Shown here: positions 4,714 through 19,089 of the stretch, piece after piece | How the letters are laid out: every line of letters begins with the position of its first letter | Numbering within the stretch: position 1 is the stretch's first letter | DNA from: Ostreococcus lucimarinus | Lineage: Eukaryota | Strand: one strand, 5' to 3' | Assembly (NCBI GenBank): GCA_000092065.1 | Contig: CP000584.1 | DNA length: 64,000 nucleotides | Notes under the pieces: generated by a model | The model's input: only the letters and a program-made list of their open reading frames with translations | The model's database searches: none | What the model was told of the DNA's origin: nothing | Made by a program: the position numbers and the translations under genes

Positions 4714-7700
4714 TTAGAAACCGACGAACTTTTCTTCGCTCGAGTTCGGCGGCGGACCGTTCATCCACGTAAACTTACCCGTCTTCGCGTCTTTGATGCT
4801 CGACAAGTCGGCTCGCGAGAGCTGTTCGGGGAGGAAATGAAGCGGGCGAAGTTTGCCGCTCATGACGGCTTCCCAGTCGATGGTTTCGTACCACGCGTGA
4901 CCCTTGATAGCGCCCAAGCCCGGCGCACGAATGCCTAAGCGGAGCGATTCGTCGCGCACGAAAATTTGCGACAACATCTCGTGCACGTCGTTGTCCATGC
5001 GTCGCGGCACGGGGACGGCGGCGAAATCCGCGCGAACGATGCGTTTGTACAAATCGCGACGCTGTCGGTCGCGAAACGGCGGAAATCCGGCGATCATTTC
5101 AAACACCAAGATACCGAACGCCCAGATATCCGCCGCGCGCGTGCATCCTTGATGCAAGATGAGCTCCGGCGCGAGGTAATCCGGCGTGCCGCAAATGGTG
5201 TACGCGCGTTGGCCTTTTTCCAACTTTTTCGCAAATCCAAAGTCACCGATCGTGATCGAGCCATCCGAGCGCAAGAGCAAGTTTTCGGGTTTCATGTCGC
5301 GATAGACATACCCGGCGCTGTGAATGTACTCCAGCCCGAGCAAGACTTGCGCGGTGTACACTTTGATTTGCCCAATGCCGGGTAATCCGCTTCTGTTGAA
5401 CAAGTCAAACATATCGCCGACGCAATCCTCGACGACGAGATATAGTGCCCATGGGTCCTGAAACGAGGCATAGTAGTTGCAAACGAACGGTGCATGGCGG
5501 AGTTCTTCTAGCGCGCGCCTTTCTGCCATACAATGCTCTTCTTCACCGTTTTCGATGACTTGCGATTTCGGCATGGTTTTAATCGCACACACCTTGCCCG
5601 AGCCCTTGTGCTTGGCGCGCAACACCAGACCGACCATGCCTTGTCCGAGGATGTCCACGACTTCGAACTCATTCAGACTCTTCGTACCTTGAAGCTCTAC
5701 GATCGTGGGACTGTGCGATCGTAGCGAGCCACTGAGCGCTGAGGAACGCTTCTCTTTAAGCGACGTCGCCGGCGGCTCGTGCAACATCGCCGTCTCCTCC
5801 GCGAGCACTGGCAAATGACCCGCTGATCCAGCTTGCGGAGACTTCTTCGCTCGTCCAAACGCGGCAAACTTCTTGCCAAAACGTAGGTGCTCGCTGGACG
5901 TTGATAACAGGTTCGATTGCGATCCGCTCGATGGCGACGGTGGCGACGGATCCAAGAACGTCGACACCGGCGCGCTGAGGTTAGGCGCGCTCGGATTCGC
6001 CGCGATCCGAAGACCAGCCAAAGCGCTGCTCGATCCTCGTTGCCGGCTCTCAGCACCTGGAATTCCGACGCCCGATTCTTCGTCGGCGCGCCTACTCGGC
6101 TCCATGTCTGCGCCGACGGAATCGACACCGATGACTTGCAAGACAAAGTTTTGCGTGCACGTCAAAATCACCGTATCCGTGAGCGCAATGTACACCCCTT
6201 GCATGGTCGTCTCTCCCGCCAAGACTTCGTCGCCGAAGTATCCACCGCTCGTGATCTTTCTGACCTTCGTCCGTCCGTTTTCCTTCATAGAGCACTCGAC
6301 TTCTCCGTCCATCACCATGAACATCTTCACTTGCATGCCTTCTCTGAAAATGACTTCACCGGCGCGGTAAGCGCGTCTACCGCGCTGCACGAGCAATTCA
6401 CTCAACGCCTCTAAACTCGCGTGTTCAAATGGCTTGAACACCGGACAATGTATGACGGCATCGTACGCCGCCTTGCGCGCCTTGGACATGACGTCTTGAA
6501 TCACCGCCGCGAAGACTTTTCGCGTGATGCCGAGCAAGACAGAATCCTCCGCGGCGACAAGCTTTGAAGGCGACGGCGTCGGTTCGGTGAGCACTTCTTC
6601 ACCCCACGTGTCACCAGACTTTAATGTCGTTCCATCCGGCACGACGTTAACTTTGCCATCAATGAGAAGGTAAAACGTATCCGCGCCTTCTCCCGCTTGT
6701 ATCACCGTGGCCCCCTCCGGGAACACCAAGCGCGTCGCCGCCTTGCTCAACGCCTCGACTAAAAGCCCGGCCAAACCGGCGTGACGCACGGCTGGAATCG
6801 AGCGAAGCGCCGATGCGAAAATATCGAGCTCCCACGATTGCGGCGGCGTCACGAGGTCGATGTATTGCGTGTTTTGAATGCCGCTTGCGCCTTCGCTCAC
6901 GCCCGGCAACGTTTGCTCCGTCGGGACGAAATCGGCGTCTCGAGGGATGGAAAATCGCTGCGAAATCGCGCGTCGATGACGCCTTAAAAGGAGAACCGAC
7001 TTAATGTACGCCAAGTCCGTCTCGCTCACCTTGCCGTGGGTCTTCATGTCCAAAAGTAAAAAACAATTTTCAACCGTGTCGCCGACGGTGAATAAATTTC
7101 CTCGAATCACGCTAATACCTCTCGCGACGCACGCGGTACAAAAATCTGCCATCAGCCCCGGTCGATCTAGCACTTGCATTTTAATCTCTGTCGCGTTTTC
7201 CACATCCTTATCGTCGAAGAGCACGCCGTGCACGCTTCGTTCCTTGGACACGAACGTTTCGTCTCGCTCCTCCTCCGCGAAGGGGCCGTACTTCTCCGTG
7301 TCCTCTGGGTCCTCCTCCGTCACCGCCTCCAGCGCGGCTTGCCTCTTCTCCGGTTTCTTCCGCACGATGTCCTCCAACTCTTGACTCACCTGCTCGCTCG
7401 ACTGTTCGCTCAATTTACACCGCGTCTCCTCCTCGCACACGTACAGCGTGTACAACACGCGTCGACTGTCCCGCACCACGTCCGCCTGCACCACGTTCAC
7501 CCCTTTCCGCGTCAAGTACGTCGCGATCTCGCTTATCAACCCAACGCGATCGGCGCACTCGATCCGTATGTACGTGTGATGCTCGTTCGCCGTGTTGCTC
7601 ACCGCCACGCGCGCCGCGTCCGCGTCGTCCGCGTTCAAAGTCGTCCCCGCGAGCTCGTCCGCCGCGTCCGCGACGCCGTCCGACCTACTCCCGCCTCGCT

Positions 7701-7743
7701 TCGAGCTTCGCGCGCGACTGAGAAATCTCTTGAGCAGTCCCAT
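4714..7743 (-). CDS. cGMP-dependent protein kinase-like AGC kinase with two N-terminal ACT domains and two cyclic-nucleotide-binding domains
   Basis: ATG at 7743. Two ACT domains are marked by YIRIECADRVGLISEIATYLTRKGVNVVQADV and IKMQVLDRPGLMADFCTACVARGISVIRGNLF. Two cNMP-binding domains are marked by GATVIQAGEGADTFYLLIDGKV and GEVIFREGMQVKMFMVMDGEV. The kinase has LGQGMVGLV, VCAIK, YRDMKPENLLL, DFGFAKK and GTPDYLAPE, with an AGC C-terminal tail. Confidence 0.85.
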   Translation of the reverse strand: MGLLKRFLSRARSSKRGGSRSDGVADAADELAGTTLNADDADAARVAVSNTANEHHTYIRIECADRVGLISEIATYLTRKGVNVVQADVVRDSRRVLYTLYVCEEETRCKLSEQSSEQVSQELEDIVRKKPEKRQAALEAVTEEDPEDTEKYGPFAEEERDETFVSKERSVHGVLFDDKDVENATEIKMQVLDRPGLMADFCTACVARGISVIRGNLFTVGDTVENCFLLLDMKTHGKVSETDLAYIKSVLLLRRHRRAISQRFSIPRDADFVPTEQTLPGVSEGASGIQNTQYIDLVTPPQSWELDIFASALRSIPAVRHAGLAGLLVEALSKAATRLVFPEGATVIQAGEGADTFYLLIDGKVNVVPDGTTLKSGDTWGEEVLTEPTPSPSKLVAAEDSVLLGITRKVFAAVIQDVMSKARKAAYDAVIHCPVFKPFEHASLEALSELLVQRGRRAYRAGEVIFREGMQVKMFMVMDGEVECSMKENGRTKVRKITSGGYFGDEVLAGETTMQGVYIALTDTVILTCTQNFVLQVIGVDSVGADMEPSRRADEESGVGIPGAESRQRGSSSALAGLRIAANPSAPNLSAPVSTFLDPSPPSPSSGSQSNLLSTSSEHLRFGKKFAAFGRAKKSPQAGSAGHLPVLAEETAMLHEPPATSLKEKRSSALSGSLRSHSPTIVELQGTKSLNEFEVVDILGQGMVGLVLRAKHKGSGKVCAIKTMPKSQVIENGEEEHCMAERRALEELRHAPFVCNYYASFQDPWALYLVVEDCVGDMFDLFNRSGLPGIGQIKVYTAQVLLGLEYIHSAGYVYRDMKPENLLLRSDGSITIGDFGFAKKLEKGQRAYTICGTPDYLAPELILHQGCTRAADIWAFGILVFEMIAGFPPFRDRQRRDLYKRIVRADFAAVPVPRRMDNDVHEMLSQIFVRDESLRLGIRAPGLGAIKGHAWYETIDWEAVMSGKLRPLHFLPEQLSRADLSSIKDAKTGKFTWMNGPPPNSSEEKFVGF

Positions 7744-8743: not shown

Positions 8744-11281
8744 TCAAATCTTCACTTCTACTTCGTCGCCATCCGTGCACCGTTTGGACTTGAGCACGAA
8801 CGTCGGCGCGTCGTCGTCGGGCGAGCCGCTCACCAGGGAAAGTATGTGCGCGGCGCCGATAAAGTCCATGAAAAGCGAACCATCCTGAGCTGGCGCGATG
8901 CCCCATTTACCTTTGCCCCACGGCGTGTCGAGTGTACCATCTTTATGAAGGACTAATCCCGGATTACCTCCCCAAGATCCGGGTGCGGTCTCCGTCTTTT
9001 GCGACATCGCCAGAGCGAGCGGCGAATTATCGATGCCGTTGTGTTGCGCTCGCAACTTACACTCCTTCGCTCCCTTCCTCCCTTCGCTCCAGTTCCAGAC
9101 ATCAATCGCATTTGCTTCACCTTTCCAGTACTGCGCTATGACGGACACCATGCGATCGGGCTTTTCAGGGTGGTAGTTGATGTGCACGCTTGCGGGTCGG
9201 TGATCTGGGTACAGATCCTCGTCGTAACGCATGAAGCGGAACATGTACTTGGAATTCTGGAAACACATGTAGTTCATCACGCGCTGGCTCGTTCCAGAAT
9301 ACTTCTTATGCTTGGACTGACCCCAGAGATACACCTGCTCCTCGTTGTACGCCGTCTGGTCCCACGTATTCTTCTCCGACGCCATGCGTTCGGCGAGTCT
9401 TGACATCATCGCCTTCGTCTCGTGCGTCGCCGCGACGAAAAACAACCCGCTATTCCGTGCGATCAACCGTCGCTGACCGTTCCATGAGAAACCGTACGAC
9501 GTCGGATCGTCCCATCCATCGGTCATTCCTTCGACGTCGGCGTCTCGATAGATCAAGCGTTTGTTTCTCGCGCTCTCACCTGCAGCGAAAGGATCTTGCA
9601 TCCAAACCACATCCACATCCGATAACAACACCGACGTCCCAGTGGATACGAATTCATTCAACACTCGGAACTTTAATCCCGACGTCGCGTGATTGTCAGT
9701 ACTACCTGTGATTGACGTTAGCTCGCGGTGATAGTACGGCACCTCGCGCTGCTTGCACCAATCCGCAGTCTCGCTATCGAGAGCCACAATGACGTAGTTC
9801 GTGATCCCCGTCCGCTTCAACCCATCGATGTACAGCTCAAGCATGTGAAAGATGTTCTTGTTACTCACCGCCGCGAGAACTTCGCGGTTTCGCGCGACTT
9901 TTCTAACCACCTCGCACAAATCCGCAAACTCGTCGCACGCGACCGGGTACTCACCCTCGGGCTCGGCGATGTATCGCAGCTCTCGCGGCTTCGGTCCTAT
10001 TCTCTCGTCTGCCTTCACGATGCCACATTTCTCCCTTCGCATTACGTGCGCCTTCGCATCCTTAAAGTTGGGCTCTTGCGCCACGACGGCGTTTTCATCC
10101 GTCGTCTGACCGTCCCAATGCGTCGAACCGTCGGGCACGTGAGCGACGCTCCCCTTTTCGGCAAAACACTCCGAATTAAGTAATCGAAACGATACACCCG
10201 CACGCTGCCGCGCATCGTGCGCTGGTAGGAGAATTTCATCCGTGAGAGCGTCGTCGCTTCCGTCAAAGTCGGACGCTTCCGACGCCAACCAATGGACGAG
10301 CGAATACGTCGCTCGCGTAGGTCGAAGCACCACGAACGTCGTCCGAATGAGAGGAATCACCATCGATTGCGAGTACTGCGACCACCCCATGGCGGGATCA
10401 GCCATGCCTTGCACGCGTGCGCTCCTCTTTCCGTCTCCTCGAATCGTCGCGCTCACGTCGGCGCCGTCGTCGAGCAACGCCGTCAAAGGATTCGACGCGA
10501 ACTTCACCGTCGACGACGCCAGAGCGACGGCGTGCCCGCGTTGCAGCACCACCGCCGCCGTCATCCATCCTCCCTCGTTTCTGCTCGCACCCTCGCTCGG
10601 CAAATGCGACGGCACGCCGGCCGTCTCGCACGTCGCCTTCTCCGTCTCGCTCGTCGTCGCCACCAACACCGCGCGCGCCCCGGACGCTTTCGCCGCTCGC
10701 ACGCGCGCGTCGATCGTACCACCGTACACGACCAAAAATCCAAACTCCGCGGAATCTTCCGAGCGAAGTTTCGCGAGATGCGCGCACGCCGTCGTCTCGA
10801 GCGTCGCGTCCCGCGTCGCCTCTCGCGCCTCGCCCGGCGCCGCGCACGACGCCCTTCCTCGCGCCGCCTTCGGCGCGCGTTCGACCCACGCCTCGGGCAC
10901 GCTCAACTCACCGTGCGTCGACGTCCGCGCCGTCGCCATCGCGTCGCGCGTTGTCGTCGTCGTCGTCCCGTCGTCGCCGTCTCGCGCGCGTCCCGCGAAG
11001 TCTCCGCGCGCGTCCCGCGGTCGCGTCGCCTCCGGCGCGCGCTCCATCGCGCGCCCGCGCGCGTCGTCCGCGACCATCGCGCGCGCGTTCGCCGCGCTCG
11101 AGCGCGCGTCGCTCGAGCGCGCGTCGATGGTTTCGGGCGCGAAAGTCTCGCGCGCGGTGAACGGTGAACGGCCGCGCGCGGCGACGACGCCCAGCGCGAC
11201 GACGACGCACGCGATCGCGCCCGCGCGCGCGATGGCGCGCGTGACGCCGCGACGGACGACCCGGCGGACGACGCGCGCCAT
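8744..11281 (-). CDS. type-II membrane glycosyltransferase, GT77-like nucleotide-diphospho-sugar transferase domain (RRA/XEG113-like arabinosyltransferase family) with a PA-like N-terminal region
   Basis: ATG at 11281 and a signal anchor MARVVRRVVRRGVTRAIARAGAIACVVVALGVVAA. The Nucleotid_trans (GT77) core is YVIVALDSETADWCKQREVPYYH...FRVLNEFVSTGTSVLLSDVDVVWMQDPF...GLFFVAATHETKAMM...WDQTAYNEE. The N-terminal FGFLVVYGGTIDARVRAAKASGARAVLV segment resembles a PA domain. A C-terminal 120-aa GKGKWG region is unassigned. Confidence 0.7.
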   Translation of the reverse strand: MARVVRRVVRRGVTRAIARAGAIACVVVALGVVAARGRSPFTARETFAPETIDARSSDARSSAANARAMVADDARGRAMERAPEATRPRDARGDFAGRARDGDDGTTTTTTRDAMATARTSTHGELSVPEAWVERAPKAARGRASCAAPGEAREATRDATLETTACAHLAKLRSEDSAEFGFLVVYGGTIDARVRAAKASGARAVLVATTSETEKATCETAGVPSHLPSEGASRNEGGWMTAAVVLQRGHAVALASSTVKFASNPLTALLDDGADVSATIRGDGKRSARVQGMADPAMGWSQYSQSMVIPLIRTTFVVLRPTRATYSLVHWLASEASDFDGSDDALTDEILLPAHDARQRAGVSFRLLNSECFAEKGSVAHVPDGSTHWDGQTTDENAVVAQEPNFKDAKAHVMRREKCGIVKADERIGPKPRELRYIAEPEGEYPVACDEFADLCEVVRKVARNREVLAAVSNKNIFHMLELYIDGLKRTGITNYVIVALDSETADWCKQREVPYYHRELTSITGSTDNHATSGLKFRVLNEFVSTGTSVLLSDVDVVWMQDPFAAGESARNKRLIYRDADVEGMTDGWDDPTSYGFSWNGQRRLIARNSGLFFVAATHETKAMMSRLAERMASEKNTWDQTAYNEEQVYLWGQSKHKKYSGTSQRVMNYMCFQNSKYMFRFMRYDEDLYPDHRPASVHINYHPEKPDRMVSVIAQYWKGEANAIDVWNWSEGRKGAKECKLRAQHNGIDNSPLALAMSQKTETAPGSWGGNPGLVLHKDGTLDTPWGKGKWGIAPAQDGSLFMDFIGAAHILSLVSGSPDDDAPTFVLKSKRCTDGDEVEVKI

Positions 11282-11386
11282 CGCGCGCGGTCGCGCGTCG
11301 GGCGATGCGGCGACGCGCGCGGCGCTCGAGGCTGCGAACCGGCGCGCGCGCGTTTAAAAAGCTTTACATCGTAATCTAGCGTTCCG

Positions 11387-12154
11387 TCACATCGTCGTCG
11401 ACCAACTCGTGCCGCGAGTGTTGATGGCGGACCCCGGACGCTCGTCCCCGGCGGCGAACTGCACGGCGCTCAGCAGCTGCTCCACCTCTGGGTGGGCGTT
11501 GGTGTCGATGGCGACTTCGCCGCGAACGATCATTCTCGACGTCGGTAACTGCGCCTCGGGAACGCTGGCGTCGTTGAGGCCGTAGAAATCTCGCGTATCA
11601 TCGTCTCGCGTGCTAAAATACGTCACCTCGACCCCGGCGCCGATGAAGACGCCCTTGGAATACGAGTAGTGGTGCACGCCGACGGCTTTTCGCGCCTCGC
11701 GTCCGTCGACGTACTTTGAATCCATCCCGATGAACGCGCTTCCATCGATCGACCGACCCAGCGGTCCGAGCGACACGCTCGCCGTGAGTCCAACCTTGAC
11801 GCTCTGCTCGCTGAAGCACGTCTCCACCGCCTCATCCGTGTCCAGCACGTACACCTGCGCGTCCTCCTTGTACCCGACGCCGAACATCCCCGTCGCCCCG
11901 CCCCCGCTCAGCGCCACGGGCGCGCCCCACGCCTCGCTCCCGGGTTTCTTCGCGATCAACACGCCGTGCGTGAACGTGCCTCCGCCGAAGAATCCCACGG
12001 TGTACGACGTCAAGAACGCGATCCCTCGCGCCTCGCGAAGGTGTTCGGACCCGATCTCCATGTCCGTGTCCGCCGTCGCCGCGCTCGTGTAGTCCTCCAG
12101 CATGGCGATCGCGCGCAGGATCTCGCGCTTCAACTGCAGGTGTTTCGAGCTCAT
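11387..12154 (-). CDS. Ysc84/SH3YL1 (DUF500) actin-binding lipid-binding domain protein
   Basis: ATG at 12154. The protein begins MSSKHLQLKREILRAIAMLEDY and includes GIAFLTSYTVGFFGGGTFTHGVLIAKKPGSEAWGAPVALSGGGATGMFGVG...VKVGLTASVSLGPLGRSIDGSAF...YSYSKGVFIGAGVEVTYFSTR, the canonical Ysc84 domain. Confidence 0.8.
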   Translation of the reverse strand: MSSKHLQLKREILRAIAMLEDYTSAATADTDMEIGSEHLREARGIAFLTSYTVGFFGGGTFTHGVLIAKKPGSEAWGAPVALSGGGATGMFGVGYKEDAQVYVLDTDEAVETCFSEQSVKVGLTASVSLGPLGRSIDGSAFIGMDSKYVDGREARKAVGVHHYSYSKGVFIGAGVEVTYFSTRDDDTRDFYGLNDASVPEAQLPTSRMIVRGEVAIDTNAHPEVEQLLSAVQFAAGDERPGSAINTRGTSWSTTM

Positions 12155-12276
12155 CGCGCGCCGTGCGTCGCGCGCGCGCGCGTGTGGCGCCTCTCAGTGT
12201 CGTCAACGTTTAGTGTTACGACGCCGCGACGCCGCGACGCCGCGCGCGACGACGCACGGCGACGCGCGACGCGGGC

Positions 12277-13968
12277 ATGCGCGCGCGCGCGCGCGCGCGT
12301 CGCGACGCCGACGACGACGACGACGACGACGCGCGCGCGCGTCGCGCGCGACGCGACGGCGATGACGGTTGGTCTGCCGCGGCGAGACTGCGCGAGGCGT
12401 CCGCGCGCGGCGACGTCGCGGCGTGGACGGGAGACGACGCGCGCGCGTTCGTGAACGCGCGCGGCGTCGACGCGATCGCGGGCGTCGGACGCGCGCGGGC
12501 GAGGGAGGCGGCGACGGCGCTGTCGCGCGCGCTGGGCGCGACGCCGCGCGCGGGCGAGACGACGTCGGCGCTGACGACGACGACGAGGGACGAGAGACGG
12601 GCGCCTCGCGAGGCGGTCGACGACGGCGATGGTGATGCGCGCGATGCGTTCAGCGGACGACCGGGCGTCGCGCGAGGGGTGGAGCTGGACGCGGAGGCGT
12701 TCGAGGGGATTTTGGCGGACGCGTCGGAGCGACGGGACGCGCGGGCGCTGTACGCCGCGCAGGTGCCGATGGCGCGCGTGGGCGAATTGGATGTCGATGG
12801 AACGCTTTACGACGAAGGGTTTCGGAGGTTTTGCGAGAGGCACGACGCGCAGAGACATTGCTGGGTCAACGGCGCGAAGCGGGCGACGACGAATTTGCAC
12901 TACGACAACTACGATAACGTTCTCGCGGTGTTGTCGGGTGAGAAGCGCGTGCGCCTGATTCAACCTTCGTTCTGCGCGGGTGGTGGTGAGAGGCCGTTTG
13001 GGGGGGTGTGCGCCGGCGCCGACGACTCGAACCACGCGTGTGGAAAACTCGAGACGGCGCCGACGTGGCGTTTCTTCACGCTCGGGCCGGGCGAATCCAT
13101 TTTTATTCCGAGCGGTTGGTATCACGAAGTGACGTCGGCCCCGTTTACAGTCGCGGTGAGTCATTGGTGGCGAAACGATTTCAACGCAGCTCTCGAAACG
13201 GTGCTCCGTGACGGGAGACGCAGCACGTATCACTTTCGCAGAGCGTTTGAATCGGCGCTCGACGTCTCCGTACACAACGAAACCGAGTCCTGTCGCGCCG
13301 TTGTTCGCGAAATCATGGAACGCGAGCTCGTCAAAAATAGGACGCTGACGTATAGAGTACTCGATGCGTACATTGGCAACTTCGTTCCGTGGGACGACGT
13401 GTTTGATTTTTTAACGCGTCGCGGAACGAGTTTGATCACAAAGGAAAATCGCCTCGAGCTCGGAACGGAGCGCGAGTCTCGCAAAGAGAACGAAAAAACA
13501 GTGAACGCATTTATCACTCGCATTTGGTTAAAAGACGGCATCGACCTCTCCGTCATGACTCGGTACTTGAAAGCGATGACGCCTGACAAAAACATCGCCA
13601 CTGCGTTGAGTCACGCGCTGCGCGAAGCCCAATCATCCGCGTCTCGTTCGACGGAGGAATCGGACGCCAGTCGTGCGCATCACCATCACGATTGCATCTA
13701 CGCGCATCACTTCGACATATTTTGGCGTGCCGTGACGACGGCGCTCGAATCGGGCGACGCCGAGTCGTGGGGAGCGCTGTACGCCGCCGCGCGGTGCGAA
13801 GAATTTCCACGAAACGACGACGTCGTGCGAGCGGTACTGCGCAACCAAAAATACGCCGTCGCATACCGCGCGCAAGCGCTTCTACAGGACAACTTAGAAG
13901 ACGACGACGTGTGTTTCACCGTAGACGTTCGAGTGCGTAGACGTGCGGAGCTCGCAGTAGACTTTTAG
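12277..13968 (+). CDS. JmjC (cupin) domain protein
   Basis: HCWVNGAKRATTNLHYDNYDNVLAVLSGEKRVRLIQP...GPGESIFIPSGWYHEVTSAPFTVAVSHWW is a JmjC cupin fold with the H.D...H metal triad. ATG at 12277; an alternative in-frame ATG at 12769 would remove the acidic, low-complexity N-terminus. Confidence 0.75.
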   Translation: MRARARARRDADDDDDDDARARRARRDGDDGWSAAARLREASARGDVAAWTGDDARAFVNARGVDAIAGVGRARAREAATALSRALGATPRAGETTSALTTTTRDERRAPREAVDDGDGDARDAFSGRPGVARGVELDAEAFEGILADASERRDARALYAAQVPMARVGELDVDGTLYDEGFRRFCERHDAQRHCWVNGAKRATTNLHYDNYDNVLAVLSGEKRVRLIQPSFCAGGGERPFGGVCAGADDSNHACGKLETAPTWRFFTLGPGESIFIPSGWYHEVTSAPFTVAVSHWWRNDFNAALETVLRDGRRSTYHFRRAFESALDVSVHNETESCRAVVREIMERELVKNRTLTYRVLDAYIGNFVPWDDVFDFLTRRGTSLITKENRLELGTERESRKENEKTVNAFITRIWLKDGIDLSVMTRYLKAMTPDKNIATALSHALREAQSSASRSTEESDASRAHHHHDCIYAHHFDIFWRAVTTALESGDAESWGALYAAARCEEFPRNDDVVRAVLRNQKYAVAYRAQALLQDNLEDDDVCFTVDVRVRRRAELAVDF

Positions 13969-14017
13969 TAGATAGAATCCAAAATCCTCAAACCGCCGCG
14001 CTCGAGTAGACATCGAC

Positions 14018-14776
14018 ATGTTCGCCCTGTCCGCATCGACGGCGCACGCGCCTGCGTTCGCGTCCTACCCGTCGCACCCGCGTGCGCGCGCGCGCGCGCG
14101 TCGCGTCGCGTCGTCGTTCGCGCGCCAGACCTCTGTCCCAATCGCGCGCGTTCGCGACGCCATCGCGCGCGCCTCGAGCGCCGATGAATCGAACGACGAC
14201 GCGAGTGATACCGTGACGAGTGGTTCTTCTTTCGATGGGTTCTCCACGACGCCTGGTGACGAGGACGCGCAGTACATCGCGGACATGGTGACGGAGATCA
14301 AAGACTGGCTCAAGCTGCTGTACGTCAAGCGAGAGATGTCGTTCAACGAAATCAAGCTCACGGTCGGGATCGAGGACCCGAGATTGGCGGAAAATCGAGA
14401 GCGATACGGGATTGAAGACGAGAGCGGGGTGAGCGCGGACGAAAAGGTGGAGACGCTTGAGATGATTGAACGAGGGGAAACGCCGACGGATGCGCGAGCG
14501 GTGTCGACGCTTTTGGAAGAGTTTAGGAATTGGCCGGGATTGGACGCGGTGGTGGATCAAAGCGTGGATGCCGGTCCTTCGAGGTATGAAGAAATCGCGA
14601 TGCGATCGGCGGGCATCAAGACGTCGAACCCGCGGCGGGTTCGAGCGAAAGAGGCGGAGGAGGAAAAGAAGGAGGGCACGATTTTTGGCTTCTTGCCGTT
14701 GTACCTGGTGAGCGCGGTGCCGATTTTCATCACCGTCTTCGCGGTCGGTATCATGTTCGTCAACTCGCTACAATAG
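14018..14776 (+). CDS. hypothetical tail-anchored membrane protein with a transit-peptide-like N-terminus
   Basis: ATG at 14018. The N-terminus MFALSASTAHAPAFASYPSHPRARARARR is Ser/Ala/Arg-rich, the middle is acidic, and the C-terminus carries a single TM, IFGFLPLYLVSAVPIFITVFAVGIMFV. No family recognised. Confidence 0.45.
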   Translation: MFALSASTAHAPAFASYPSHPRARARARRVASSFARQTSVPIARVRDAIARASSADESNDDASDTVTSGSSFDGFSTTPGDEDAQYIADMVTEIKDWLKLLYVKREMSFNEIKLTVGIEDPRLAENRERYGIEDESGVSADEKVETLEMIERGETPTDARAVSTLLEEFRNWPGLDAVVDQSVDAGPSRYEEIAMRSAGIKTSNPRRVRAKEAEEEKKEGTIFGFLPLYLVSAVPIFITVFAVGIMFVNSLQ

Positions 14777-14804
14777 ACTAATTTTGTGACGCCTGCTAAT
14801 TCAA

Positions 14805-16271
14805 CTAAACCTCCCGAAACGGGTTCGTTTCGCGTCGTCGTCGCTGTTCGCTGCGTTGCCTCGTCTTCGTTCGAACGAAGCGATACACGATGACGCAAAA
14901 GCCAACGACCCAAGTAAGGCTTCCCATCGTCCACATGCGATGCATCCGTTCTTCGTGCGCAATTTCTCGCTCGACTTTTAACGTGGCTTTCCTCGCTAAC
15001 AGACGCTCTGTGGCGTCACCCGCACGCTCCGCTCGATGCATCACCGGGACTGGCGTCGGCTTTTGCGTCATTCTGGGTTTCACCTTAGGATCCTCTCGCG
15101 ATGGCTTCATCGGTACGTCTCTTCCTTTAGGTATTATCGGCAACGACTTTGTTTCGACTCGATGACTACGAGCGCCCCGCCCGCATTTCTCATCGTTGTA
15201 CTTTTTCACTGCGTCGTTGATCGCCGACACCGTGATGTACATAATTTTCACCTTGATGTAATTGTGACGCTCTTGCTGCAACGCGTGCGCGCTCGGGCGC
15301 TTCGGGTAAGGCACAACGGGGAACGGTTCCACATCTCGCGTGGCGCACGTCATACGCTCCAAGTGCCCAGGCTCCCAATGTTTATCCCACGAGTACGGGC
15401 CCTCGTCCATCCTCAAACCGTAGTGCACGATGAACGGGTCGGCGCTTGCCTCATCCCACGGCTTCATACCTGCGTACAGCTGTACGGATCGCATCACGTT
15501 GTGCGTCAACCCCGCCAACCCGCAACCGAAGACGAACCCGTACATTTCCGAAATCCACGGCCTTGGCGATTCCTCGGAGACGTACACGTCGCCGGTGCCG
15601 CGATACGGAAACCAAATCCTCTTATCCATGCGCACCTTCACCGTTTGCGCAAACCAGTGCGGCGTCATGTTCACAAAATCTTCAGCGTCAAATATCTCCC
15701 ACCCACCCACGGGCGCGAGCCTTTTCTCCACCTCCTCGTCCACGAACCACTTGGCCATTCCGTTCTTCGTGCCGACGAGATAATCGTATTGACCGCTCGC
15801 GGCGACGCCCTTGCTCGCTGGAATCTCTCTCACGCTCAGCGGTTTTAGCAACAACATGTCCGCGTCTAGCTTCACCACCCACTTTCGATCCGTGCCGACG
15901 TTTTGCGCCCAATGATTCATCCCTCCCGGCAAGTTATACGCAGAGTATCCGTCGTCGTCCCCAAACTTTTCCTTGGCGTACCACACGAACGACGGGCACT
16001 TGACCGTGTCCGGCACCACGTCCATGTGTTCGTACCGCGCGTACTCGTCATCCGTGCACGATATCAATCGCGTCATGCGTCCAGGGCTGCCAATCGCGCG
16101 CCACGACTCATACAGCGCGCGCGCCTGCCAAGTCATGTACGGTTGGCAATCGGCGGAAAAGACGTAGTGATAGTCATCGATCTCGCGTCGTTCGCTCGCG
16201 TCGTCGAGGTCGGCGAACGCCAGGGATGCGCGCGCGAGCAGCGCGACGAGCGCGAGGGCGCGCGCGCGCAT
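14805..16271 (-). CDS. HPAT/SGT-like glycosyltransferase (GT95/GT96 family: hydroxyproline O-arabinosyltransferase / peptidyl-serine galactosyltransferase type)
   Basis: ATG at 16271 with a signal or anchor MRARALALVALLARASLAFA. YHYVFSADCQPYMTWQARALYESWRAIGSPGRMTRLISC matches the HPAT core pattern YH.V.TA...Y..WQ.R..Y......PG..TR(L/I). A C-terminal TM is LTWVVGFCVIVYRF. Confidence 0.6.
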   Translation of the reverse strand: MRARALALVALLARASLAFADLDDASERREIDDYHYVFSADCQPYMTWQARALYESWRAIGSPGRMTRLISCTDDEYARYEHMDVVPDTVKCPSFVWYAKEKFGDDDGYSAYNLPGGMNHWAQNVGTDRKWVVKLDADMLLLKPLSVREIPASKGVAASGQYDYLVGTKNGMAKWFVDEEVEKRLAPVGGWEIFDAEDFVNMTPHWFAQTVKVRMDKRIWFPYRGTGDVYVSEESPRPWISEMYGFVFGCGLAGLTHNVMRSVQLYAGMKPWDEASADPFIVHYGLRMDEGPYSWDKHWEPGHLERMTCATRDVEPFPVVPYPKRPSAHALQQERHNYIKVKIMYITVSAINDAVKKYNDEKCGRGARSHRVETKSLPIIPKGRDVPMKPSREDPKVKPRMTQKPTPVPVMHRAERAGDATERLLARKATLKVEREIAHEERMHRMWTMGSLTWVVGFCVIVYRFVRTKTRQRSEQRRRRETNPFREV

Positions 16272-17492: not shown

Positions 17493-17769
17493 CGCGCGGC
17501 GACGACGGCGTCGACGTCTGCGGGCGGTCGGCGTCGAACCGCGGCGTAACACCCACCTCGCGCGCGTCGTCGACACACGACGGCGCGCGGCGCGAGCGGG
17601 CGCGTCGATCGACGACGGCATGGCGGAACGCGCGCCGTTACTGATCGCGCGCGACGTCGAGGCGGCGGTGTCGACGCGCGAGGGCGCGCGCGCGACGCGC
17701 GAGGGCGCGGGCGAGGGTGTTGGGGCGACGGACGAGGATGACGGGTGGTTGGCGCGCGCGAGGGGCGCG

Positions 17770-19089
17770 ATGATGGACGCGACGACGCGACGGGGATCCG
17801 TGGGGCGTCTCTCGAGCGCGTTGGCGCTCGTCGGTGCGCTCGCCGCGCTGGCGTGCGTCGCGGGACTCGGAGGCGATCGCGGCGTCGCCGCGCGCGCGGG
17901 GCTGGGAAGCCATCACGGGCACAAGAAGGAAATACTCGAAGGCTCGACGAAGAATTGCGTGAACGCGGCGGCGGATAACGCGGCGGGGACGTTTCAGATG
18001 GAGACGTCGAAGTGCGAGGATTTGTCGACGCCGGGGTGCGTCGGACATCGATCGATGTGTCGATTTTGCCAGACGCACATGGCGACGAATCGAAACCACG
18101 ACTGGCCGGTGTGCCCGGCGACGGTGTGCGCGGAGAACGACGTGCACGGGTGCAAGTCGGAGTCGGGGAAAAAGATGACTAAACGGGAGTTGGCGTGGGA
18201 TATCTTGCGCCAGCACGTGCTCGATCACAATAGCATGGTGGCGGGCATCAAGATTGGAAAGTGCCACGGCAATTCGCAGGATCACGGCTTGGGGCGGTAT
18301 CAATACAGCGACTCGCAGTGTTTACGGTCGGGCTTGCCCGGTTGTCTCGGTGCGGGCGCAGCGTGCCGCTTTTGTAACGTGAAGAACGCGAAGAAGGCCG
18401 GTAATGAGTGGCCCACGTGTCCGATGGCGGTGTGCGACAAGTACGACGTGAAGTCAAAGTATTGCGCAAAGCTCACGCAATACCACGTGCCGCCGGAAAC
18501 GCCCCCAAAGGATTGGGATGAGAAATCTTTACCCGATACGATGTCCGTCGAACTCGACGAAGACGACGAAGATGCAGATTCGTTGAAGTTGAAGTCTGTG
18601 AAGTCGCACCATCAACACAAACACAAGCATAGCGAAGATGACGATGACGATGACGATGACGATATCGATGCCAAGCCCGTCTCAAAGCACTCAAAGCATA
18701 GCGACAGTGCCGGCTTAGGTGAAGACGAAGGTGAAGACGATGACGAGTACTACTCCAAAGAAAGTACTATACCGGTGGAGGCGGACGACGACGACGACGA
18801 CGACGACGACGATGAGGAAGATGAGGAAGATTACGAAGATGACGAGGACGAGGACGAGGACGAGGACAAATCGCACGTCAAAAAGCATCATCATCATCAT
18901 TCCAAGGTCAAGTTAGGTAACCAGGCTGCGCTAGACGACCAGGCCATAGTACATACCCACAAGAATGAGCAATCGGTGAAGCAGACGCATGCGGCGTCTG
19001 ACCTCGACTCTTTGGTTTTTGAAGAGATTGACGTCGAAGCGATCTCTTCCGAACGCGGTAAAAAGAGATCATCGCGAGGGACAGAGTAG
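17770..19089 (+). CDS. secreted protein with two novel cysteine-rich repeats and a poly-Asp/Glu plus His-rich tail
   Basis: ATG at 17770 gives the signal peptide MMDATTRRGSVGRLSSALALVGALAALACVAG. The ORF-track start at 17620 abuts the divergent gene. Repeat 1 is PGCVGHRSMCRFCQTHMATNRNHDWPVCPATVCAENDVHGC. Repeat 2 is PGCLGAGAACRFCNVKNAKKAGNEWPTCPMAVCDKYDVKSKYC. The tail is HHQHKHKHSEDDDDDDDDD...EADDDDDDDDDDEEDEEDYEDDEDEDEDEDKSHVKKHHHHH, and (GAC)9 occurs at about 18785-18811. Confidence 0.55.
   Translation: MMDATTRRGSVGRLSSALALVGALAALACVAGLGGDRGVAARAGLGSHHGHKKEILEGSTKNCVNAAADNAAGTFQMETSKCEDLSTPGCVGHRSMCRFCQTHMATNRNHDWPVCPATVCAENDVHGCKSESGKKMTKRELAWDILRQHVLDHNSMVAGIKIGKCHGNSQDHGLGRYQYSDSQCLRSGLPGCLGAGAACRFCNVKNAKKAGNEWPTCPMAVCDKYDVKSKYCAKLTQYHVPPETPPKDWDEKSLPDTMSVELDEDDEDADSLKLKSVKSHHQHKHKHSEDDDDDDDDDIDAKPVSKHSKHSDSAGLGEDEGEDDDEYYSKESTIPVEADDDDDDDDDDEEDEEDYEDDEDEDEDEDKSHVKKHHHHHSKVKLGNQAALDDQAIVHTHKNEQSVKQTHAASDLDSLVFEEIDVEAISSERGKKRSSRGTE

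What the first reader, a model, noticed from the sequence alone, without database searches (positions are those of the whole stretch)
8744..16271. Two Golgi-type glycosyltransferases of the hydroxyproline-O-arabinosylation pathway within 7.5 kb (GT77 RRA/XEG113-like fusion protein and GT95/96 HPAT-like)
In plants HPAT (GT95) adds the first arabinose to Hyp and GT77 enzymes (RRA, XEG113) extend the chain. Here an HPAT/SGT-like gene (14805..16271) and an unusually large 845-aa GT77 protein (8744..11281) lie three genes apart. The GT77 protein carries a PA-like N-terminal module and an unassigned 120-aa C-terminal GKGKWG region. Co-location of two steps of one glycosylation pathway is unusual for a eukaryote and suggests co-regulation or a shared substrate, possibly the neighbouring secreted acidic protein.
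Basis: partly seen in the sequence, partly recalled or inferred. Interest (0 to 1): 0.5.

Follow-up and report, generated by a model that had tools for sequence, protein, structure and literature searches.

The report
Two linked O-glycosylation enzymes in Ostreococcus
Two glycosyltransferase genes of the plant-type "extensin" protein-glycosylation machinery do sit three genes apart in this Ostreococcus genome piece, but their closeness is what ordinary gene-order conservation and chance predict, so the finding is largely ordinary apart from an unusual three-part build of one enzyme.

Summary
Both ORFs exist exactly as given. 8744..11281(-) is a GT77 enzyme (PF03407, 176 bits). Its closest named relatives are plant RRA arabinosyltransferases, at about 40% identity. 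14805..16271(-) matches Pfam HPAT (47.7 bits).

Four corrections:
1. The organism is Ostreococcus (O. lucimarinus-like), not Micromonas.
2. The "PA-like" N-terminal module is a degenerate second GT77 domain that has lost its DxD motif. The C-terminal 84 aa form a conserved all-beta domain, shared with single-domain algal and haptophyte GT77s and absent from plant RRAs.
3. The HPAT-like protein looks like SGT1 (GT96, peptidyl-serine alpha-galactosyltransferase) rather than HPAT (GT95). It has a signal peptide, a C-terminal membrane anchor and a DxD motif, and is 33-34% identical to each domain of the ~800-aa plant SGT1-type proteins. The pair is therefore probably two different modifications of one substrate class, not consecutive steps.
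4. The linkage is kept in other Ostreococcus clades and in a Bathycoccus-like contig, inside a larger collinear block of unrelated genes. It is broken in Micromonas-like contigs.

Given the published family counts, chance gives about 4% for such a pair and about 12% for any two pathway GTs. There is no shared promoter and no Hyp-rich substrate gene nearby. Overall: ordinary genes, a mildly novel GT77 architecture, low interest.

The parts
8744..11281 (-). Gene for an 845-aa type II membrane GT77 glycosyltransferase (RRA-like). Layout: membrane anchor, variable stem, degenerate GT77 domain, active GT77 domain, C-terminal beta domain.
   Evidence: ORF. PF03407 at 176 bits. 12-ortholog alignment A1. 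Best named homologs are RRA1/2/3, about 40% identity over 98% of the domain. AF2 model pLDDT 82.3.
11168..11248 (-). N-terminal signal-anchor (aa 12-38) of the GT77 protein.
   Evidence: Kyte-Doolittle 19-mer maximum of 2.29. Plant RRAs in the same run have the same N-terminal anchor.
9935..10762 (-). Degenerate (pseudo-) GT77 domain, aa 174-449. The DxD position reads A-S-S-T.
   Evidence: hhalign of the N-module against the catalytic domain: probability 95.4%, E 1.9e-8, 127 columns. The N-module HMM hits plant RRA catalytic domains at 50-72 bits, and the linker HMM hits the second half of single-domain GT77s. The equivalent region of P0016 passes the Pfam PF03407 cutoff (27.8 bits). DxD is absent in all 12 orthologs. 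The AF2 model shows an alpha/beta fold with pLDDT above 90.
9101..9934 (-). Catalytic GT77 domain, aa 450-727.
9611..9619 (-). DxD motif D555-V556-D557 of the active GT77 domain.
   Evidence: Invariant in A1. At least 90% conserved in the 45-sequence alignment A5, which includes plant RRAs.
8747..8998 (-). C-terminal conserved domain of about 84 aa (aa 762-845; motif WGG..G..L..DGTL.TPWG.GKWG...F.DF...H......S.RC.DG.EV). It is all-beta and has no Pfam family.
   Evidence: Conserved in all orthologs. No Pfam hit at E<=10. Its HMM hits single-domain algal GT77s, including Emiliania huxleyi P0102 and P0112, but no plant RRA. AF2 predicts 8 beta strands at aa 768-844 with pLDDT of about 90.
14805..16271 (-). 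Gene for a 488-aa type I membrane protein with one HPAT/SGT-superfamily GT-A domain. It is most likely an SGT1-type (GT96) peptidyl-serine alpha-galactosyltransferase.
16212..16271 (-). Predicted N-terminal signal peptide (about aa 1-20) of the SGT-like protein.
   Evidence: The most hydrophobic 19-mer of the protein starts at aa 5 (Kyte-Doolittle 1.58). It is followed by an acidic stretch, and the catalytic domain starts at aa 34.
15858..15866 (-). DxD motif D136-A137-D138 (LDADM) of the SGT-like domain.
   Evidence: D136 and D138 are invariant and A137 is at least 90% conserved in 45 homologs. Both plant SGT1-type domains carry the same LDADM.
14874..14936 (-). Predicted C-terminal transmembrane segment (aa 446-466), followed by a basic cytosolic tail.
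   Evidence: The second most hydrophobic 19-mer starts at aa 448 (Kyte-Doolittle 1.56). The same signal-peptide plus C-terminal-TM layout occurs in orthologs and in plant P0065, P0066 and P0242. AF2 predicts a long helix at aa 415-481.
14018..14776 (+). Context gene, not part of the pathway: a conserved 252-aa tail-anchored protein. It is the convergent neighbour of the SGT-like gene in all Mamiellales loci examined.
   Evidence: No Pfam hit. 67% identity to the neighbour in Micromonas-like L011. tblastn finds it in L005-L012, L016 and L017.
12277..13968 (+). Context gene: a JmjC/Cupin_8 protein. It lies between the two GT genes only in Ostreococcus loci.
   Evidence: PF13621 at 76 bits. Present in L005-L008; absent from L009-L012, L016 and L017.
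11387..12154 (-). Context gene: a Ysc84/SH3YL1-type actin-binding protein.
   Evidence: PF04366 at 72.5 bits. It also sits next to the 252-aa gene in Micromonas-like L009, L010 and L017.

Best explanation
The window is from Ostreococcus. It carries two independent, separately transcribed genes for secretory-pathway glycosyltransferases that act on Ser/Hyp-rich glycoproteins.

(a) 8744..11281(-) encodes a type II Golgi-type GT77 enzyme of the RRA (clade A-like) lineage. By homology, its C-terminal GT-A domain uses a DxD-bound metal and a UDP-sugar to extend a protein-bound glycan. The most likely reaction is a retaining transfer that adds the second beta-1,2-arabinofuranose to Hyp-Araf. In front of the active domain is a duplicated GT77 domain that has lost DxD and most catalytic invariants but keeps its own conserved motifs (for example DPAMGWSQYSQSM). 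It probably serves as a structural or acceptor-binding module. Behind the active domain is an 84-aa beta domain of unknown (possibly binding) role.

(b) 14805..16271(-) encodes a type I membrane, single-domain enzyme of the HPAT/SGT superfamily. It is most likely an SGT1-type (GT96) retaining alpha-galactosyltransferase for Ser next to Hyp.

Shown here: the domains, motifs, predicted topology, predicted folds, homology and synteny. Inferred: the sugar and acceptor specificities.

The proximity of the two genes is inherited gene order. It lies in a collinear block of unrelated genes shared by Ostreococcus clades and a Bathycoccus-like genome, and is broken in Micromonas-like genomes. It is not a functional gene cluster.
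For: Family assignments.

RRA affinity:
- The profile search returns RRA1/2/3-named plant proteins at about 250 bits and about 40% identity.
- In the NJ tree, the window's catalytic domain falls in a marine-algal clade that is sister to the streptophyte RRA clade.

Pseudo-domain.

C-terminal domain distribution.

SGT1 affinity:
- The best land-plant hits are 757-823-aa two-domain proteins. They align at 33-34% identity to both domains.
- P0242 is 46% identical over 709 aa to RefSeq 'peptidyl serine alpha-galactosyltransferase' P0431.
- The type I layout is shared.
- The literature says SGT1 is type I, whereas HPAT, RRA and XEG113 are type II (PMC4183102; PMC8012813).
- SGT orthologs are reported in all analysed chlorophytes (PMC3797821).

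Folds: both models are GT-A folds most like retaining GT8 enzymes.

Synteny. Background collinearity: PMC11106453. Chance estimate.

No local substrate. No other pathway gene elsewhere in the window.
Against: - No bona fide HPAT1-3, AtSGT1, CrSGT1, XEG113 or RGXT sequence could be placed in a tree, and dbCAN was not available. GT96-versus-GT95 and clade A-versus-other therefore rest on best named hits, topology and architecture.
- The SGT-like protein has one catalytic domain, whereas land-plant SGT1-type proteins have two.
- Prasinophytes are reported to lack the GT75 UDP-Ara mutase (PMC3797821). This casts doubt on arabinofuranosyl transfer, although Hyp-Araf3 has been reported, unpublished, in O. 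tauri (PMC8012813).
- The linkage is retained across the deep Ostreococcus/Bathycoccus split even though the intervening genes differ. A selective reason for the proximity therefore cannot be excluded.
- Taxon labels for the metagenomic loci rest on GC content and similarity only.
Confidence: 0.68

Rival explanations
1. One reading: the two genes form a functional mini-cluster, co-regulated or acting on a shared and possibly neighbouring substrate, and selection keeps them together.
For: - The pair is linked in all Ostreococcus loci and in a Bathycoccus-like locus, where only one gene separates them.
- The genes between them changed (Cupin_8 and Ysc84 present or absent) while the pair stayed close.
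- The chance estimate for a GT77-GT95/96 pair is about 4%.
- In Arabidopsis, SGT1, RRA3, XEG113, HPAT3 and the P4Hs are co-expressed (PMC5371791).
Against: - The conserved block also holds unrelated genes (LON-domain, PQ-loop, LYAR zinc finger, kinase) in the same order.
- Mamiellophyceae show 75.7% collinear genes, and Bathycoccaceae are the least rearranged.
- The linkage is broken in every Micromonas-like locus.
- There is no shared or bidirectional promoter and no specific shared upstream motif.
- No Pro/Hyp-rich candidate substrate lies in the window, and the acidic neighbour has 2.7% Pro.
- If any two of the 16 pathway GTs count, chance rises to about 12%.
Confidence: 0.12
2. 14805..16271 encodes a true initiating Hyp O-arabinosyltransferase (HPAT, GT95). 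The locus would then hold step 1 and step 2 of Hyp-arabinosylation.
For: - It passes the Pfam 'HPAT' gathering threshold.
- GT95 and GT96 are related families (PMC8012813).
- O. lucimarinus is reported to have 3 GT95 genes.
- The single-domain architecture resembles HPAT more than the two-domain plant SGT1.
Against: - The Pfam score is low (47.7 bits), and the same model also scores plant SGT1-type proteins (140-142 bits).
- All land-plant hits are 757-823-aa SGT1-type proteins. No HPAT-sized (~360-aa) land-plant protein appears there.
- The predicted topology is type I, a published hallmark of SGT1. HPATs are type II.
Confidence: 0.15
3. The 845-aa GT77 enzyme is not an extensin-type arabinofuranosyltransferase. 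The algal subclade with the extra C-terminal domain would transfer another sugar, or act on another acceptor such as scale or surface glycans or glycolipids.
For: - It belongs to a marine-algal/haptophyte clade separate from streptophyte RRAs, only about 40% identical to them, with an added pseudo-domain and C-terminal domain.
- Prasinophytes reportedly lack the GT75 mutase that makes UDP-Araf, and the authors themselves doubted RRA/XEG113 function there (PMC3797821).
- GT77 also contains xylosyl- and galactosyltransferases (family knowledge; RGXT is named).
Against: - RRAs are the nearest characterised relatives, and the catalytic invariants are shared with plant RRAs.
- Hyp-Araf3 is reported (unpublished observation) in O. 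tauri (PMC8012813).
- SP3-4 repeat proteins exist in O. tauri and Micromonas (PMC5371791).
Confidence: 0.25

Closest known systems
Arabidopsis RRA1-3 (GT77 clade A; beta-1,2-arabinofuranosyltransferases that extend Hyp-Araf1 on extensins)
   Same: PF03407 domain, about 40% identity over the whole catalytic domain, conserved DxD and other invariants, N-terminal type II anchor, predicted GT-A fold.
   Different: - Twice the length (845 aa against about 430 aa).
- An extra degenerate GT77 domain upstream and an 84-aa beta domain downstream.
- It falls in a marine-algal sister clade, so strict orthology and Araf specificity are unproven.
- The UDP-Araf mutase (GT75) is reportedly missing in prasinophytes.
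SGT1 (GT96; peptidyl-serine alpha-galactosyltransferase of Chlamydomonas, Arabidopsis and tobacco)
   Same: Type I membrane layout (signal peptide plus C-terminal TM), LDADM DxD motif, 33-34% identity to each catalytic repeat of the plant ~800-aa proteins, and 30% identity to a chlorophycean 754-aa homolog.
   Different: One catalytic domain and 488 aa, rather than two tandem domains and about 800 aa. Activity is untested, and no CAZy/dbCAN assignment was done here.
HPAT1-3 (GT95; Hyp O-beta-arabinofuranosyltransferases)
   Same: Same Pfam superfamily model (PF23452), single catalytic domain, predicted retaining GT-A fold.
   Different: - The Pfam score is weak.
- The predicted topology is type I, not type II.
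- The nearest plant relatives are SGT1-type proteins, not HPATs.
Tandem GT-A enzymes with one non-catalytic repeat (for example procollagen galactosyltransferase ColGalT1/GLT25D1). This is an analogy from my own knowledge.
   Different: Unrelated family (GT25 against GT77), a different acceptor (hydroxylysine), and no sequence relationship. The role of the Ostreococcus pseudo-domain is untested.

Membership tests
GT77 (Pfam PF03407 Nucleotid_trans) | Significant match to the family model above the curated cutoff | tested here: met
   176 bits against a cutoff of 22, aa 492-709.
GT77 (Pfam PF03407 Nucleotid_trans) | DxD metal/nucleotide-sugar motif in the catalytic domain | tested here: met
   D555-V-D557 is invariant in 12 orthologs and at least 90% conserved in 45 sequences including plant RRAs. 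It is absent from the N-terminal repeat.
GT77 (Pfam PF03407 Nucleotid_trans) | GT-A fold and type II Golgi-type anchor | tested here: met
   [not shown]
GT77 clade A (RRA) | Groups with RRA1-3 rather than XEG113 (clade C), RGXT (clade B) or clade D | tested here: inconclusive
   All named best hits are RRA1/2/3 (about 40% identity, about 250 bits). The NJ tree puts it in an algal clade sister to streptophyte RRAs. No XEG113, RGXT or clade D sequences were available as outgroups.
GT77 clade A (RRA) | beta-1,2-Araf transfer to Hyp-Araf1, and availability of UDP-Araf | not testable with these tools
   This needs an enzyme assay. The literature reports no GT75 mutase in prasinophytes but also Hyp-Araf3 in O. 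tauri.
GT96 (SGT1, peptidyl-Ser alpha-galactosyltransferase) | Sequence relationship to SGT1 proteins | tested here: met
   33-34% identity over about 300 aa to both domains of the plant 816-823-aa proteins. P0242 is 46% identical over 709 aa to RefSeq-named SGT P0431. That RefSeq-named SGT itself aligns to the window protein at only 25% over about 300 aa. The family profile gives P0333 (P0431's 90% cluster) 321 bits.
GT96 (SGT1, peptidyl-Ser alpha-galactosyltransferase) | Type I membrane topology (signal peptide plus C-terminal TM) with a conserved DxD | tested here: met
   The two hydropathy maxima are at aa 5 and aa 448. Plant homologs have the same layout. D136 and D138 are invariant. The published SGT1 feature is in PMC4183102.
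GT96 (SGT1, peptidyl-Ser alpha-galactosyltransferase) | Two tandem catalytic repeats and about 800 aa, as in land-plant SGT1-type proteins | tested here: not met
   The window protein has one domain and 488 aa. The plant proteins show two PF23452 stretches. This may be a land-plant elaboration rather than a family-defining trait: a chlorophycean homolog, P0343, shows one stretch.
GT96 (SGT1, peptidyl-Ser alpha-galactosyltransferase) | CAZy/dbCAN family call, and Ser-Gal transfer that depends on adjacent Hyp | not tested
   dbCAN was not available and the activity needs biochemistry. The published dbCAN-type count gives O. lucimarinus 2 GT96 and 3 GT95 genes without listing identifiers.
GT95 (HPAT) | Match to the Pfam HPAT model | tested here: met
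   47.7 bits against a cutoff of 23.9. The model is not specific to GT95, because plant SGT1-type proteins score 140-142 bits.
GT95 (HPAT) | Type II Golgi anchor on a protein of about 360 aa | tested here: not met
   Predicted signal peptide plus C-terminal TM. HPATs are described as type II (PMC8012813). The ~360-aa figure is from my own knowledge.
GT95 (HPAT) | Closer to HPAT1-3 than to SGT1 in a direct comparison | not tested
   No authenticated HPAT sequence could be obtained. None appeared among the 63 hits or the top 150.
PA domain (PF02225) | Match above the curated cutoff in the N-terminal module | tested here: not met
   17.5 and 15.9 bits against a cutoff of 23.9. The region is homologous to GT77 instead.
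Functional (co-regulated) gene cluster | Linkage conserved beyond background synteny, a shared regulatory region, or co-expression | tested here: inconclusive
   The linkage is conserved in Ostreococcus and a Bathycoccus-like locus, but within a larger collinear block of unrelated genes. It is broken in Micromonas-like loci. There is no shared promoter. Expression data were not available.

The most novel reading that the evidence does not exclude
The SGT-like/RRA-like linkage is ancestral to Mamiellales (inferred order SGT - p252 - Ysc84 - GT77 - LYAR - kinase). It would be retained in Bathycoccaceae because the two enzymes form one co-regulated O-glycosylation module for Ser-Hyp surface glycoproteins. 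The so far undescribed build 'dead GT77 - live GT77 - beta domain' would act as a built-in acceptor-reading or lectin device that couples Ser-Gal recognition to Hyp-arabinoside extension.
Probability: 0.08. Interest if true: 0.5.

Novelty: new variant of a known kind. Interest (0 to 1): 0.25.

Why it matters
If the assignments hold, wall-less picoalgae such as Ostreococcus keep both arms of the extensin-type O-glycosylation machinery, Ser-galactosylation and Hyp-arabinoside extension. That supports an origin of this machinery before land-plant cell walls.

The tandem dead/live GT77 architecture with an extra beta domain is conserved across Mamiellophyceae-like sequences. It offers a tractable case for asking what a pseudo-glycosyltransferase domain does.

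The co-location itself carries little weight. It does not make a new pathway or regulatory principle testable.

Tried and rejected
1. PA domain for the N-terminal module. Rejected: it is sub-threshold for PA and clearly GT77-derived.
2. 'The linkage is Ostreococcus-specific.' This was my interim conclusion from the gene tables. It was overturned when the 1045-aa protein of L016, listed there without any Pfam family, proved to be the GT77 ortholog. After that I re-screened all loci by tblastn instead of trusting the tables.
3. AFDB Foldseek search to obtain named structural neighbours. The library was not available.
4. PDB sequence searches with both family profiles. No relatives were found.
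5. Shared upstream motif between the two genes. Only CG-rich low-complexity k-mers were shared, and a mononucleotide shuffle is a poor control, so the result is uninformative.
6. A neighbouring substrate. No SPPP or poly-Pro motifs occur in any of about 40 window genes.
7. Looking for Ulvskov 2013's clade assignment of the Ostreococcus GT77s. The supplement is truncated.
8. Obtaining authentic HPAT sequences from papers or supplements. None are held.
9. Organism names for the metagenomic loci through cluster look-ups. None were found, so genus labels other than Ostreococcus rest on GC content and similarity.

Full report
OBSERVATION

Pfam assigns the first to PF03407 Nucleotid_trans, the GT77 domain (E 1.3e-51, 176 bits, aa 492-709). 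It assigns the second to PF23452 HPAT (E 1.8e-12, 47.7 bits against a cutoff of 23.9).

Three genes lie between them:
- a Ysc84 actin-binding protein, 11387..12154(-);
- a JmjC/Cupin_8 protein, 12277..13968(+);
- a 252-aa protein without a Pfam family, 14018..14776(+).

The 90%-identity cluster of the 488-aa protein contains XP_001417500.1 of Ostreococcus lucimarinus CCE9901. The window is therefore Ostreococcus, not Micromonas. Its GC content is 62.5%. An MMETSP transcript in the cluster of the 845-aa protein (P0206, 827 aa, 'complete') supports the long ORF as a single unit.

THE GT77 PROTEIN

Twelve full-length orthologs (38-69% identity) share one architecture:
- an N-terminal hydrophobic anchor, aa 12-38;
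- a variable stem;
- a conserved 'linker', aa 337-449;
- the GT77 catalytic domain, aa ~450-727, with an invariant DxD at D555-V-D557;
- a conserved C-terminal stretch, aa 762-845.

The PA match is below threshold (17.5 bits against 23.9). Several results show that the N-terminal part is a GT77 repeat instead:
- A profile of the N-module aligns to a profile of the catalytic domain with 95.4% probability (E 1.9e-8, 127 columns).
- An HMM of the N-module hits the catalytic domains of plant RRAs at 50-72 bits.
- An HMM of the 'linker' hits the second half of single-domain GT77s.
- In a distant relative, P0016, the equivalent region passes Pfam's own GT77 cutoff (27.8 bits).

So aa 174-449 is a complete but degenerate second GT77 domain. 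The DxD position reads ASST, ASSE, ASHR, VSHE and so on in all orthologs. Most catalytic invariants are gone, but new ones are conserved, for example DPAMGWSQYSQSM. It is a pseudo-glycosyltransferase domain under selection.

The C-terminal 84 aa have no Pfam match even at E<=10. AlphaFold2 models them as an eight-stranded beta domain at high confidence. They recur at the C-terminus of many single-domain marine-algal GT77s, including Emiliania huxleyi, but not in plant RRAs.

THE HPAT-LIKE PROTEIN

Every land-plant hit is a 757-823-aa protein. Each has two PF23452 stretches, a signal peptide and a C-terminal transmembrane segment. The window protein aligns to both repeats at 33-34% identity over about 300 aa, including the LDADM motif.

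One such protein, Camelina P0242, is 46% identical over 709 aa to a RefSeq protein named 'peptidyl serine alpha-galactosyltransferase' (P0431). That RefSeq protein itself aligns to the window protein at only 25% identity over about 300 aa. The representative of P0431's cluster scores 321 bits against the family profile.

The window protein has the same type I layout. Its two hydropathy maxima are at aa 5 and aa 448, and the second is followed by a basic tail. D136 and D138 are invariant in 45 homologs.

Reviews state that the Ser-O-galactosyltransferase SGT1 is a type I membrane protein (PMC4183102). HPAT, RRA and XEG113 are type II (PMC8012813). GT95 and GT96 are described as related families. 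Ulvskov et al. already reported SGT orthologs in all chlorophytes they analysed (PMC3797821).

The protein is therefore best read as SGT1-like (GT96). Three caveats apply:
- It has one catalytic domain, not two.
- No authenticated HPAT could be compared directly.
- dbCAN was not run.

If this is right, the pair is not 'step 1 plus step 2' of Hyp-arabinosylation. It is two different decorations of the same Ser-Hyp motifs. In Arabidopsis these are independent: sgt1 mutants keep normal arabinosides (PMC5371791).

IS THE CO-LOCATION MEANINGFUL?

Gene order:
- Other Ostreococcus clades (about 60-71% identity) keep the whole block SGT-like - p252 - Cupin_8 - Ysc84 - GT77.
- I first concluded that the linkage stopped at the genus boundary. 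That was wrong. A Bathycoccus-like contig (L016, GC 48.6%) carries SGT-like - p252 - GT77 - LYAR - kinase, with LON-domain, PQ-loop and acidic-protein orthologs upstream, collinear with the window. Its 1045-aa GT77 ortholog (42% identity over 669 aa, PF03407 at 126 bits) had simply been listed without a Pfam family.
- In Micromonas-like contigs (GC 65-69%), the SGT-like gene keeps p252, and in three of the five loci also Ysc84. It is then followed by Vac14 and other genes, with no GT77 within 10 kb.
- GT77 orthologs in such genomes sit among unrelated genes with no SGT-like gene nearby.
- By parsimony, the ancestral order may have been SGT - p252 - Ysc84 - GT77 - LYAR - kinase. This is an inference.

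The conserved block contains unrelated genes in the same order. Published analyses find 75.7% of Mamiellophyceae genes collinear, with Bathycoccaceae less rearranged than Mamiellaceae (PMC11106453). Background synteny therefore explains the retention.

Published family counts for O. lucimarinus are GT77 8, GT95 3, GT96 2 and GT47 3, among 7603 genes in 13.2 Mb (PMC13213038). A simulation with these numbers gives 4.1% for at least one GT77-GT95/96 pair within four gene steps, and 12% for any two of the 16 pathway GTs.

Other checks point the same way:
- The two genes have separate upstream gaps and are separated by genes on both strands.
- Shared upstream k-mers are only CG-rich low complexity.
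- No gene in the window encodes SPPP or poly-Pro motifs, and the 'secreted acidic protein' has 2.7% Pro.
- The rest of the window is unrelated housekeeping genes plus one GH31.

MECHANISM, AS FAR AS IT IS SUPPORTED

Shown here:
- two secretory-pathway GT-A enzymes with intact DxD motifs;
- one type II enzyme with a dead GT77 repeat and an extra beta domain;
- one type I single-domain enzyme.

Inferred from homology:
- The GT77 extends Hyp-linked arabinosides, as RRA does.
- The other enzyme puts alpha-galactose on Ser next to Hyp, as SGT1 does.

Open questions:
- The reported lack of a GT75 UDP-Ara mutase in prasinophytes leaves the donor sugar of the GT77 uncertain. Against that, Hyp-Araf3 has been mentioned for O. 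tauri as an unpublished observation.
- The roles of the pseudo-domain and of the C-terminal domain are unknown. A structural or acceptor-binding role is the natural guess. The analogy is with other tandem GT-A enzymes that have one inactive repeat (my own knowledge).

VERDICT

Both genes are ordinary members of families already counted and discussed for Ostreococcus in the literature. The one mildly new item is the conserved 'pseudo-GT77 - GT77 - beta domain' architecture. Interest is low.

Noticed in passing
14018..14776 (+): A 252-aa protein with no Pfam family and a C-terminal hydrophobic tail. It is the convergent neighbour of the SGT-like gene in every Mamiellales locus examined (Ostreococcus, Bathycoccus-like, Micromonas-like; 61-88% identity). 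This is the tightest conserved adjacency in the region.
   Followed up: partly
17644..19089 (+): The 'secreted acidic protein'. It has an N-terminal hydrophobic anchor, two Cys-rich repeats (…CRFC…N.WP.CP..VC…), long poly-Asp/Glu runs and a His-rich tail. It has no Pfam hit, 2.7% Pro and no extensin-type motif. Orthologs occur in other Ostreococcus loci (71%) and in the Bathycoccus-like locus (34%).
   Followed up: partly
12277..13968 (+): A JmjC/Cupin_8 (2-oxoglutarate oxygenase-type) gene with a low-complexity Arg/Asp-rich N-terminus. It lies between the two glycosyltransferase genes only in Ostreococcus. It is absent from the corresponding place in the Bathycoccus-like and Micromonas-like loci.
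   Followed up: partly
[not shown]
   Followed up: no
22740..25133 (-): Another carbohydrate-active enzyme gene, a GH31 glycoside hydrolase of 797 aa, lies about 6.5 kb beyond the SGT-like gene. I found no evidence that it is connected to the two transferases.
   Followed up: no
4714..7743 (-): A 1009-aa protein that combines ACT domains, two cyclic-nucleotide-binding domains and a protein kinase domain. A kinase ortholog keeps the same position next to LYAR and GT77 in the Bathycoccus-like locus.
   Followed up: no
L016:12536-15673 (+): The gene table of the look-up of encoding contigs listed this 1045-aa protein with '-' (no Pfam on record), yet it scores 126 bits on PF03407 and is the GT77 ortholog. 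Synteny conclusions drawn from those tables alone can be wrong.
   Followed up: yes
10242..11357 (+) and other long ORFs antisense to real genes: The high GC content produces long spurious antisense ORFs, for example 371 aa opposite the GT77 gene. GC3 periodicity separates them from the real frames.
   Followed up: yes
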